DNA of 64,000 nucleotides from a virus (taxonomy: Duplodnaviria > Caudoviricetes): positions 32,001 to 96,000 of IMG/VR virus record IMGVR_UViG_3300020048_000009; one strand, written 5' to 3'. Positions 50,468 to 51,393 of this stretch are shown here, one piece after another. The notes beneath the pieces were generated by a model. The model did no database searches. It was not told the DNA's origin and was given only the letters and a program-made list of their open reading frames with translations. How positions within the stretch are numbered: the stretch's first letter is position 1; every line of letters begins with the position of its first letter. The position numbers were made by a program, and so were the translations under genes.

Positions 50468-50809
50468 ATGAGTATTAAGAAACCGAAATTAACTATTATG
50501 CGTACACCAAAAGCGGGTAAAGTATTACCCAAAATTGGGGAGTTCTTTACTGTTAAGAATTTTGAAAATCCGGATAACAATGGATTAGTATTAATTAGAA
50601 TCGATCCTTGTTATATATCTCCAGCAATTGTTGAAGCTGGATGTAGTTGGAATAATTGTGGTGCTCATGAAATTGTTTTTGGTATTCCGCTTGGAGAAGC
50701 ATTTAATAGTGCTCAAACTAAAATCAATGGCGCATGTACATGTCCTATTAAAACTATGGATTTTATAGTTTTGGATATTGAAGAAATTAAAGCAAAAATT
50801 AAAAGTTAA
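50468..50809 (+). CDS. hypothetical protein
   Basis: ORF in operon. Confidence 0.6.
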   Translation: MSIKKPKLTIMRTPKAGKVLPKIGEFFTVKNFENPDNNGLVLIRIDPCYISPAIVEAGCSWNNCGAHEIVFGIPLGEAFNSAQTKINGACTCPIKTMDFIVLDIEEIKAKIKS

Positions 50810-50856
50810 GGTGTATATTGTAGCGAGTATCAAGTATAATTAAAGTATAAATTTTG

Positions 50857-50965
50857 ATTCCATCAGGGGAATGAAAAGTGGTTTAAGCCTGATGCGTCTC
50901 GACGGTTTGCTGAATATTGTTAGGGTCCTTTCTTCCTAATAATGTTTATACTGTCGAGGGTACCG
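50857..50965 (+). ncRNA. pistol ribozyme
   Basis: P1 ATTCC/GGAAT, loop ATCAGG pairs CCTGAT, A-rich linker, P2 TGGT/ACCG, UUAAG, GCGU, P3 CTCGACGGT/ACTGTCGAG, GG^U. Confidence 0.85.
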
Positions 50966-51205
50966 ATAGGTTACGGAAAATTATTTTCAAAAATATTTCA
51001 TTTTTATTTTTGGAAATGATAAATAAAATAAAATTAAGGATAAAGCAAATGTTTACGAACACATATAGAGGCAATGATAAAGGCAATACAGAACTATGTA
51101 TTACTAATGCCGGGGCTTTATCCAATCTTACAGCAGTAAATTTCCCAGAACGAATAAAGCCCGTAACCCAAGTTTAATTTAAACGGTAAAATGTTTTGGG
51201 TTACT

Positions 51206-51284
51206 ACTAGGAGAGGTTAAGCCTAGTGCGTTCTATAAAATTTACTGTGTCTAATGCTAAACACGAAATTTTGTAGAGGTCCTC
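51206..51284 (+). ncRNA. pistol-like ribozyme lacking canonical P1
   Basis: ACTAGG/CCTAGT, P2 GAGG/CCTC, UUAAG, GCGU, 12-bp P3, GG^U. Confidence 0.65.
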
Positions 51285-51393
51285 AAAAGAAATGAGCAAT
51301 TATTTCTTTAGATTTGATCTGTGACAATTGAATAGAAAACTTTAAATTATTTTTTGGTGGTTTTTATAACTCAAAAAACTACCCAACTTTTAT

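What the first reader, a model, noticed from the sequence alone, without database searches (positions are those of the whole stretch)
51163..51284. Pistol-like ribozyme with rewired topology (no P1 or linker)
The second copy keeps the core (P2 GAGG/CCTC, UUAAG, CCTAGT pairing with ACTAGG, GCGU, 12-bp P3, GG^U at 51279/51280). However, the pseudoknot strand is joined to P2 by a single A, and a separate hairpin (GTAACCCAA/TTGGGTTAC) lies just upstream where it could stack in place of P1. If active, it is a new minimal or permuted pistol architecture that standard models would miss.
Basis: partly seen in the sequence, partly recalled or inferred. Interest (0 to 1): 0.72.

Follow-up and report, generated by a model that had tools for sequence, protein, structure and literature searches.

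The report
Natural pistol ribozyme lacking stem P1
Just upstream of a large phage's tRNA genes sits a stripped-down version of a known self-cutting RNA (the pistol ribozyme) that lacks a stem thought to be a fixed part of that class. The same stripped-down design recurs, with matching compensatory changes, in at least ten other phage lineages, so it looks like a working natural variant rather than a broken copy; cutting itself is untested.

Summary
Window 51206-51284 holds every pistol core element: PK ACTAGG/CCTAGT, P2 GAGG/CCTC, UUAAG, GCGU, a 12-bp P3 and G^U at 51279/51280. There is no P1 3' strand and no A-rich J1/2; a single A (51212) joins the pseudoknot strand to P2. Rfam's Pistol model does not report it.

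It is not a one-off decay product.
- A relative of 79% identity (L066) keeps stems, core and hairpin stems with 1 change in 76 nt, against 77 in 240 nt in loops and flanks (p = 5e-10). The one change turns G.U into A-U.
- Pattern scans that did not require P2 or P3 pairing found the same layout in at least ten other phage lineages: PK 5' strand, 1 nt, 4-nt P2a, UUAAG, PK 3' strand, GCGU, P3, GG^U, P2b. PK, P2 and P3 all covary.
- Canonical and P1-less forms head the same conserved cassette in related phages.

The adjacent upstream hairpin (51163-51204) is conserved in this phage but is not a feature of the class. The design is a deletion, not a permutation.

Best reading: a natural minimal subclass of pistol ribozyme that cuts between a 42-codon ORF and the tRNA precursor. 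Cleavage is untested. I found no description in the searchable literature. This scan earlier noted permuted pistols on other DNA, but not this form.

The parts
51163..51204 (+). Upstream hairpin: 9-10 bp stem and 24-nt loop. The stop codon of the small ORF lies in the loop. The hairpin ends 1 nt before the pseudoknot strand.
   Evidence: Sequence and fold. Against L066 the stems are invariant while the loop has 6 changes in 24 nt. Only 1 of 200 random control positions had an adjacent hairpin as good.
51206..51211 (+). Pseudoknot 5' strand ACUAGG. It is not enclosed in a P1 hairpin loop.
   Evidence: It pairs 6/6 with 51222-51227. Across the class the PK covaries: ACUAGG/CCUAGU, GCAGGG/CCCUGU, CUUGGG/CCCAAG.
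51212..51212 (+). Single-nucleotide linker A. It replaces the P1 3' strand plus the A-rich J1/2.
   Evidence: With a gap of 3-10 nt allowed in the metagenome scan, all 7 distinct hits had exactly 5 nt: 1 linker nt plus a 4-nt P2a. The linker was A in 6 of 7.
51213..51216 (+). P2 5' strand GAGG.
   Evidence: Pairs with CCUC 51281-51284. All four P2 pairs show changes on both sides across the class.
51217..51221 (+). Conserved core UUAAG, equivalent to env25 U29-G33.
   Evidence: Invariant in alignment A2. Numbering follows the env25 construct printed in PMC6101554.
51222..51227 (+). Pseudoknot 3' strand CCUAGU, equivalent to env25 34-39.
51228..51231 (+). Conserved core GCGU, equivalent to env25 G40-U43. 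G51228 corresponds to the general-base guanine.
   Evidence: Invariant in A2. The roles of G40, G33-C41 and G42 are taken from PMC6101554 and PMC6795133.
51232..51277 (+). P3 hairpin: 12-bp outer stem (51232-51243 with 51266-51277) plus an inner extension and loop.
   Evidence: Against L066 the outer stem has one change, G51273>A, which turns G.U into A-U, while the inner part has 9 changes in 22 nt.
51278..51280 (+). GG^U junction. The predicted scissile bond lies between G51279 and U51280.
   Evidence: GGU is invariant in all 14 aligned class members. The cleavage position is inferred from canonical pistols (PMC4604425).
51281..51284 (+). P2 3' strand CCUC. It would form the 5' end of the downstream product that carries the tRNA precursor.
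   Evidence: In a lake-water relative, sequence variation and indels begin at 51286, two bases after this strand.
50857..50964 (+). Copy 1, a canonical pistol. It has P1 ATTCC/GGAAT with loop ATCAGG, an A-rich J1/2, P2, UUAAG, PK CCTGAT, GCGU, a long P3, and G^U at 50960/50961.
   Evidence: Against L066 the core is invariant and the base of P3 carries compensatory changes. Rfam also misses it.
51049..51177 (+). Small ORF of 42 codons with an AAGGA ribosome-binding site, lying between the two ribozymes. Its last codons form the 5' strand of the upstream hairpin.
   Evidence: the ORF is kept in L066, and the three indels inside it are all 3 nt; the only change in the X3 relative (51174 T>C) is synonymous.

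Best explanation
Window 51206-51284 is a functional member of a natural 'P1-less' (minimal) subclass of the pistol self-cleaving ribozyme.

Fold. The RNA folds as an H-type pseudoknot. The PK helix ACUAGG/CCUAGU is stem 1. A single A is loop 1. P2 (GAGG/CCUC) is stem 2. The catalytic nucleotides UUAAG and GCGU, together with P3, fill the other two loops.

Why P1 may be dispensable (inferred). In canonical pistols, P1 presents the PK strand and the AAA of J1/2 packs into the P1 minor groove. Here both have been removed together, and the closeness of the two PK strands (10 nt apart) replaces the pre-organisation that P1 provides.

Chemistry (inferred from canonical pistols). The 2'-OH of G51279 attacks its 3' phosphate, with G51228 (G40 equivalent) acting as general base. 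This leaves a 2',3'-cyclic phosphate on the upstream RNA and a 5'-OH on U51280.

Biological role (inferred). Together with the canonical copy 1, the ribozyme cuts the leader of the tRNA operon. That separates a small-ORF mRNA of about 320 nt from the tRNA precursor.

The adjacent upstream hairpin may stack on the PK end where P1 normally sits, but it is an optional, lineage-specific addition.

Shown here: the anatomy, purifying selection, recurrence and covariation. Inferred: catalysis, the role of the hairpin and the biological purpose.
For: 1. All non-P1 pistol core elements are present in the canonical order and spacing. The descriptor gives 1 hit in the genome against 0.0 in 100 shuffles.

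2. Purifying selection. Against L066 (79% identity over 609 nt), the stems, core and hairpin stems of copy 2 show 1 change in 76 nt. Loops and flanks show 77 in 240 nt (Fisher p = 5e-10). The single change keeps the pair (G.U to A-U). A 33.6-kb lake-water contig has no change in 51175-51285, and its indels begin at 51286.

3. Recurrence without ascertainment on P2 or P3. The metagenome scan fixed only the PK and core and allowed 3-10 nt between them. It returned 11 loci holding 7 distinct sequences. All 7 have exactly 5 nt in the gap, and 6 of 7 have a perfect 4-bp P2 after P3-GGU. The P2 sequences are GAGG/CCUC, GGUG/CACC, CGGG/CCCG and GCCA/UGGC.

4. Further members from other scans. Viral scans added L047 (GGGU/ACCC). 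They also added members with other pseudoknots: L085, L093, L092 (4 full copies within 5.4 kb) and L129. L178 came from a MAG contig.

5. Pair counts. On 14 aligned members, 182 of 182 cells are paired, and 11 of 13 pairs have changes on both sides. Sliding the partners drops pairing to 22-52%.

6. Bimodality. Among viral sequences holding the 15-mer core, 31 have P1 of 4-6 bp with a gap of 14-26 nt (30 at 14-17, one at 26), and 1 has no P1 with a gap of 5 nt.

7. Same cassette, both architectures. L037 and L049 (canonical) and L067 and L068 (P1-less) head the same conserved downstream element of about 190 nt.

8. Structural logic from the literature. The active site is the three-way junction of P2, P3 and the G33-C41 pair, and P1 only stacks on the PK (PMC6795133). 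A19-A21 of J1/2 dock into the P1 minor groove, so losing both together is coherent (PMC6101554).
Against: - No cleavage assay exists for any P1-less member.
- In a canonical bimolecular construct, disrupting P1 caused a substantial loss of activity (Harris et al. 2015, PMC4604425).
- P3 here is almost entirely A-U, and P2 is only 4 bp.
- The 100% pairing is partly by construction, because several members were picked with a descriptor that required pairing.
- I could not check on atomic coordinates whether 1 nt can bridge the PK 5' strand and P2a in the crystal geometry.
- All available sequencing runs are assembled contigs, so no RNA ends could be read.
Confidence: 0.68

Rival explanations
1. 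Decayed pistol. Copy 2 is a duplicate of a canonical pistol that lost the P1 3' strand and the linker by deletion. It is now an inactive relic drifting towards loss.
For: P1 disruption strongly reduces activity in a canonical construct (PMC4604425). Truncated P1-less remnants do exist elsewhere: L092 at 4362 and L064 both end right after GCGU. Rfam gives no score here.
Against: Constraint on stems and core equals that on the canonical copy 1: 1 change in 76 nt and 0 in 40 nt, against about 32% divergence in loops and flanks. The one substitution keeps the pair. The same architecture, with covarying PK, P2 and P3 and a fixed 1-nt linker plus 4-bp P2, occurs in at least ten other lineages. In some phages it is the only pistol-like core the scan found.
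Confidence: 0.07
2. A conserved fold with a role other than efficient self-cleavage. The P1-less pseudoknot could be kept as a structural element, for example a 3'-end protective or ribosome-interacting structure at gene ends. Alternatively it could cleave only with help from a protein or from a hairpin supplied in cis or trans.
For: Most members start at or within a few nucleotides of the upstream gene's stop codon. PK 5' strand, A and P2a together often read AGGAG, which resembles a Shine-Dalgarno sequence. No activity data exist.
Against: Every nucleotide known to build the pistol active site is invariant in all 14 aligned members, including the exact GG^U junction. This covers UUAAG, GCGU and the G-U step. 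Such conservation is hard to explain without catalysis. Canonical and P1-less forms occupy the same position in the same cassette.
Confidence: 0.15
3. The hairpin as an obligatory P1 surrogate. The 51163-51204 hairpin stacks on the PK end in place of P1 and is required for activity.
For: The hairpin ends 1 nt before the PK 5' strand, at the PK end where P1 stacks in canonical pistols (PMC6795133). Its stems are invariant against L066 while its loop varies. An adjacent hairpin this good is rare at control positions (1 of 200 and 0 of 200). The L067 group (6 bp, 1 nt away) and the truncated L031 (7 bp, 2 nt away) have one too.
Against: L092 (4 copies), L093, L129 and L085 have no adjacent hairpin. 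In most members the upstream flank is coding sequence that ends at the PK strand. In this window the hairpin's 5' strand is itself coding, which could explain part of its conservation.
Confidence: 0.25

Closest known systems
Canonical pistol self-cleaving ribozyme (Rfam RF02679; Weinberg et al. 2015; Harris et al. 2015, PMC4604425; structures 5K7C and 5KTJ)
   Same: A 6-bp pseudoknot to the P2-P3 junction, the UUAAG and GCGU core, the P2 and P3 helices, and the G^U site with a fixed junction length. It is found in phages and sits between genes. A canonical copy lies 334 nt upstream in the same leader.
   Different: There is no P1 helix and no A-rich J1/2 (the AAA that docks into P1). The PK 5' strand is single-stranded RNA joined to P2 by 1 nt, and P2 is fixed at 4 bp. 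Class members score 27-31 bits against the 34.5-bit gathering score, while canonical ones score 39-70. The window copy is not reported at all.
Minimal natural forms of other small ribozymes: minimal HDV-like 'theta' ribozymes next to phage tRNAs (PMC10879173), and twister, whose P1 is dispensable for cleavage (PMC6154101)
   Same: A peripheral helix of the consensus fold is missing while the catalytic core is intact. The theta ribozymes share the context of phage tRNA genes.
   Different: These are different ribozyme classes. Theta ribozymes lie 3' of tRNAs and are proposed to process 3' trailers. This element lies about 110 nt 5' of the first tRNA, in the operon leader.
Classical H-type pseudoknots with a 1-nt loop 1 (general RNA structure knowledge; Pleij et al. 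1985 as cited in PMC6154101)
   Same: The strand order is stem 1 5' strand, 1 nt, stem 2 5' strand, loop 2, stem 1 3' strand, loop 3, stem 2 3' strand.
   Different: Loop 2 (UUAAG) and loop 3 (GCGU-P3-GGU) carry a ribozyme active site, so the stems need not be coaxial.
Natural circularly permuted pistols noted earlier in this scan on other DNA (e1-5406992)
   Same: Another natural rearrangement of the P1 module of pistol that is missed by standard annotation.
   Different: In that case P1 is reported to have moved to the 3' end. Here P1 is absent and no downstream copy of the PK strand exists. I did not test that finding.

Membership tests
Pistol ribozyme (RF02679) | P1 hairpin whose loop carries the pseudoknot 5' strand | tested here: not met
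   Only a single A lies between ACUAGG and P2a, so no P1 3' strand exists. P1 = 0 bp here against 4-6 bp in 31 canonical sequences.
Pistol ribozyme (RF02679) | A-rich J1/2 linker (conserved AAA docking in the P1 minor groove) | tested here: not met
   The linker is 1 nt (A51212), whereas canonical hits carry AUAAA-type linkers. The role of A19-A21 is taken from PMC6101554.
Pistol ribozyme (RF02679) | 6-bp pseudoknot between the 5' strand and the junction linking P2 and P3 | tested here: met
   51206-51211 pairs 6/6 with 51222-51227. Four of the six PK pairs show changes on both sides across the class.
Pistol ribozyme (RF02679) | Highly conserved internal-loop nucleotides (UUAAG and GCGU; A32, G33, G40, C41, G42) | tested here: met
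   Present at 51217-51221 and 51228-51231, and invariant in all 14 aligned members. The patterns used to find members fixed these letters, so their invariance within the class is partly by construction. Conservation against L066 and X3 is independent of that.
Pistol ribozyme (RF02679) | P2 and P3 helices flanking the core | tested here: met
   P2 is 4 bp and P3 is 12 bp. All tested P2 and P3 pairs covary.
Pistol ribozyme (RF02679) | G^U cleavage step as a junction of strictly conserved length between P3 and P2 | tested here: met
   GG-U at 51278-51280 lies directly between P3 and P2b, with the same spacing as in the canonical hits. The rule is stated in PMC4604425.
Pistol ribozyme (RF02679) | Rfam covariance-model score at or above the gathering score (34.5 bits) | tested here: not met
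   No hit at the gathering score or at E <= 10. Other P1-less members score 27-31 bits.
Pistol ribozyme (RF02679) | Mg2+-dependent site-specific self-cleavage giving a 2',3'-cyclic phosphate and a 5'-OH | not testable with these tools
   All available sequencing runs are assembled contigs, which cannot show RNA ends.

The most novel reading that the evidence does not exclude
P1-less pistols are a catalytically competent, naturally selected minimal form of the pistol fold, with a core of about 45 nt plus the P3 loop. This would show that P1 and the conserved AAA of J1/2 are a dispensable peripheral module. The form is used mainly by environmental (largely aquatic) phages, starts directly at the stop codon of the upstream gene, and in this phage sits at the head of a tRNA operon. 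It would redefine the minimal pistol and extend the family beyond what current covariance models detect.
Probability: 0.6. Interest if true: 0.72.

Novelty: new variant of a known kind. Interest (0 to 1): 0.62.

Why it matters
P1 is drawn in every published pistol consensus, and its disruption was reported to cripple activity. A recurrent, covarying natural form without P1 and J1/2 would have three consequences.

- It would show which parts of the fold are truly needed for catalysis.
- It would give a smaller natural scaffold for ribozyme engineering.
- It would mean that current Rfam-based surveys undercount pistols. In the one unbiased sample here, about 3% of pistol cores were of this type.

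In this phage, a canonical copy and a minimal copy bracket a small conserved ORF at the head of a 24-tRNA array. That adds a second ribozyme class, after the theta/HDV-like ribozymes, to the processing signals found around phage tRNA genes.

Tried and rejected
- **Rfam.** Scans at the gathering score and at E <= 10 found no Pistol hit for either copy in the window.
- **Phage genome database.** blastn of the region against deposited phage genomes gave no match.
- **Related loci.** A search with the neighbouring DUF932 protein found no relatives.
- **Bacterial and archaeal genomes.** The genome-contig scan for the ACTAGG-type P1-less pattern gave 0 hits.
- **Canonical P1 in P1-less members.** I looked for one formed by the flanks and found none; at most 1-2 bp are possible.
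- **Closing helix.** I looked by eye for a helix between the 5' and 3' flanks of the ribozyme and saw nothing consistent.
- **Downstream P1-like hairpin (a permuted form).** I looked for one carrying a second PK strand; none is present in the window.
- **Sequencing runs.** All holders are assembled contigs, so no RNA 5' or 3' ends could be read. The RNA-labelled runs hold only small shares, and the one I laid is probably DNA.
- **Promoter and terminator scan.** Not above shuffled expectation.
- **Literature.** Searches for a P1-less, minimal or variant pistol found no description. The Weinberg 2015, Ren 2016, Nguyen 2017 and Wilson 2019 papers are not held in the library, so a mention there cannot be excluded.
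- **L064.** It has linker G and a tRNA right after GCGU, but no P3 or P2b could be found. I treat it as a truncated remnant.

Full report
**Setting.** The window is bases 32001-96000 of a 211,678-bp uncultured phage contig from IMG/VR. The contig encodes a family-B DNA polymerase, GroEL, a CCA-adding/poly(A)-polymerase-type enzyme and 24 tRNAs. The finding lies in the non-coding leader of about 590 nt between the last upstream ORF (which ends at 50809) and the first tRNA (51394).

**Observation.**
- Hairpin 51163-51171 / 51196-51204, then T51205.
- ACUAGG 51206-51211 and A51212.
- GAGG 51213-51216 and UUAAG 51217-51221.
- CCUAGU 51222-51227 and GCGU 51228-51231.
- A 12-bp P3 (51232-51243 with 51266-51277, one G.U).
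- GG^U 51278-51280 and CCUC 51281-51284.

No P1 can close around ACUAGG, because only one nucleotide separates it from P2a. RNAfold recovers the hairpin, the PK helix and P3. A descriptor for this layout hits the real genome once and hits 100 dinucleotide shuffles of it 0.0 times on average. A canonical pistol (copy 1, 50857-50964) lies 334 nt upstream, with a 5-bp P1, loop AUCAGG and an A-rich J1/2. Rfam's Pistol model reports neither copy, even at E <= 10.

**Is copy 2 decaying?** No.
- A metagenomic relative, L066, aligns to 50784-51392 at 79% identity and keeps both copies.
- Within copy 2, the stems (PK, P2, outer P3), the core nucleotides and the hairpin stems carry 1 change in 76 nt. 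The hairpin loop, inner P3, spacer and downstream leader carry 77 in 240 nt (Fisher p = 5e-10).
- The single change, G51273>A, converts a G.U pair to A-U.
- Copy 1 behaves the same way, with 0 changes in 40 core and stem positions and compensatory changes at the base of P3.
- A 33.6-kb lake-water contig from another study has no difference in 51175-51285. Its indels begin at 51286, two bases after P2b.

**Is the architecture unique to this phage?** No.
- *15-mer scan of IMG/VR.* The 15-mer UUAAG-CCUAGU-GCGU returned 51 loci. Among the distinct sequences, 31 are canonical, with P1 of 4-6 bp and 14-26 nt (mostly 14-17) between the PK strand and UUAAG. One, L047, has no P1 and a gap of 5 nt.
- *Metagenome scan.* This scan fixed only the PK and the core and allowed 3-10 nt between them. 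It gave 11 loci holding 7 distinct sequences. All 7 have exactly 5 nt: one linker nucleotide (A in 6, G in 1) plus a 4-nt P2a. Six of the 7 show a perfect 4-bp P2 directly after P3-GGU, although the pattern did not ask for this.
- *Viral scans with free PK letters.* These added members with other pseudoknots: GCAGGG/CCCUGU in L085, L093 and L092, and CUUGGG/CCCAAG in L129. L092 carries four full copies and one truncated copy within 5.4 kb of a 69-kb contig.
- *Genome scan.* This added L178, on a MAG contig.
- *P2 sequences seen.* GAGG/CCUC, GGGU/ACCC, GGUG/CACC, CGGG/CCCG, GCCA/UGGC, GCCU/AGGC and GCAG/CUGC. P3 differs in every lineage.
- *Pair counts.* On 14 aligned members (A2), all 182 pair cells are standard pairs, and 11 of 13 pairs show changes on both sides. 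Sliding the partners by 1-3 columns drops pairing to 22-52%.
- *Caveat.* Part of that 100% is by construction, because my descriptor required pairing. The metagenome scan and the 15-mer scan did not.
- *Rfam scores.* Rfam scores these members at 27-31 bits, below its 34.5-bit threshold. Canonical hits in the same loci score 39-70.

**A natural swap.** L037 and L049 (canonical) and L067 and L068 (P1-less) share a nearly identical downstream element of about 190 nt that begins inside the ribozyme. Their upstream sequences are unrelated. Both architectures therefore head the same cassette, which argues for functional equivalence.

**The upstream hairpin.**
- In this phage and L066 it is strong and ends 1 nt before the PK strand. 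That is the PK end on which P1 stacks in canonical pistols (PMC6795133).
- Its stems are invariant while its loop varies.
- An adjacent hairpin is also seen in the L067 group and in L031.
- L092, L093, L129 and L085 have none.
- In most members the upstream ORF's stop codon overlaps or abuts the PK strand, at offset -2 or -3, so the flank is coding sequence.

The hairpin is thus an optional local feature, not part of the class definition. In the window its 5' strand is also the end of a small ORF.

**Mechanism.**
- *Literature basis.* The pistol active site is the three-way junction of P2, P3 and the G33-C41 pair. The PK is coaxial with P1 (PMC6795133). A19-A21 of J1/2 form A-minor triples in the P1 minor groove (PMC6101554).
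- *What is removed.* Taking out the P1 3' strand and J1/2 together removes one self-contained peripheral module and leaves an H-type pseudoknot: PK is stem 1, the single A is loop 1 and P2 is stem 2.
- *My inference.* The two PK strands are now only 10 nt apart, so PK formation no longer needs a pre-organised P1 loop. The rigid '1 nt + 4 bp' rule reflects the steric fit of loop 1 across P2.
- *Chemistry, assumed as in canonical pistols.* The 2'-OH of G51279 attacks, with G51228 as general base (PMC4604425; PMC6101554).
- *Counter-evidence.* P1 disruption in a canonical bimolecular construct caused substantial loss of activity. That experiment left a long floppy linker in place, so it is not equivalent to this deletion. 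It is still the main reason for caution.

**Biological role (inference).**
- Copy 1, the ORF at 51049-51177 and copy 2 precede a covarying hairpin, a conserved TGATCTNTGACAATTGAAT box and the tRNAs. The ORF has 42 codons and an AAGGA ribosome-binding site. Against L066 its three indels are all 3 nt, and the one change in the X3 contig is synonymous.
- Cutting at 50960/61 and at 51279/80 would release an mRNA of about 320 nt with a 5'-OH end and a structured 3' end carrying a cyclic phosphate. The tRNA precursor would then start at U51280.
- Elsewhere the P1-less form sits between protein genes, usually 15-40 nt before the next ribosome-binding site, like canonical pistols in phage operons.

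**Novelty.**
- Published consensus models of about 500 sequences describe P1 as a constant feature (PMC4604425).
- I found no paper describing P1-less pistols. Several key papers are not held in the library, so a mention there cannot be excluded.
- This scan earlier reported natural circularly permuted pistols on other DNA. That is a different rearrangement, and I did not test it.

I file this as a new variant of a known kind: it works like a pistol, but it fails three membership criteria (P1, J1/2 and the Rfam score).

Noticed in passing
window 50857-50964: Copy 1 is a canonical pistol with a long P3 of about 60 nt. Rfam also misses it, even at E <= 10. Against L066 its P3 base carries compensatory changes (CUCGAC/GUCGAG to CAUGAU/AUCAUG).
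   Followed up: partly
window 51049-51177: A 42-codon ORF with an AAGGA ribosome-binding site lies between the two ribozymes. It is kept in L066, where the three indels inside it are all 3 nt, and the only change in a lake-water relative is synonymous. It is probably a real small gene. No homology search was run.
   Followed up: partly
L037:4366, L049 (minus strand), L067:6578, L068:5135 and about 190 nt downstream of each: Four loci share a nearly identical RNA-like element of about 190 nt that starts inside the pistol and ends in a GC hairpin plus a U-run. Their upstream genes are unrelated. Rfam finds nothing there besides Pistol. This may be a mobile ribozyme-plus-sRNA cassette. In L037 the P2a does not pair with the bases right after the cleavage site.
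   Followed up: partly
L092:4362-4387 and L064:3457-3504: Two truncated P1-less pistols both stop right after GCGU. One runs straight into a ribosome-binding site and ATG. The other runs into a repeated TTGACT promoter-like box and a tRNA. Together with the cassette boundary above, this suggests the conserved core acts as a recombination breakpoint.
   Followed up: no
window 50835-50964 (run X13): A wastewater library labelled RNA-Seq cDNA (flagged as probably DNA) holds a 162-nt contig at depth about 22. It consists of exactly 50835-50964, flanked by Nextera adapter letters, so it is a short insert that ends at the 3' edge of copy 1. Its meaning is unclear, and contigs cannot show RNA ends.
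   Followed up: no
window 51288-51335; L066 about 580-640: Just after copy 2, a hairpin of different sequence in the two phages (AGAAAU/AUUUCU against UUAGUUAAU/AUUAACUAA) precedes a conserved TGATCTNTGACAATTGAAT box. This fits the boxB/boxA-like reading of another first-stage note.
   Followed up: partly
P1-less members in general (for example window 51209-51216, L065, L047): Joining the PK 5' strand, A and P2a creates an AGGAG-type Shine-Dalgarno-like string. In most members the upstream gene's stop codon overlaps the PK strand. This could couple ribozyme folding to translation termination. It was not tested.
   Followed up: no
L092 copies and L178, P3 loops: The P3 loops of the GCAGGG-type members share a UGAGGA motif although their P3 stems differ.
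   Followed up: no
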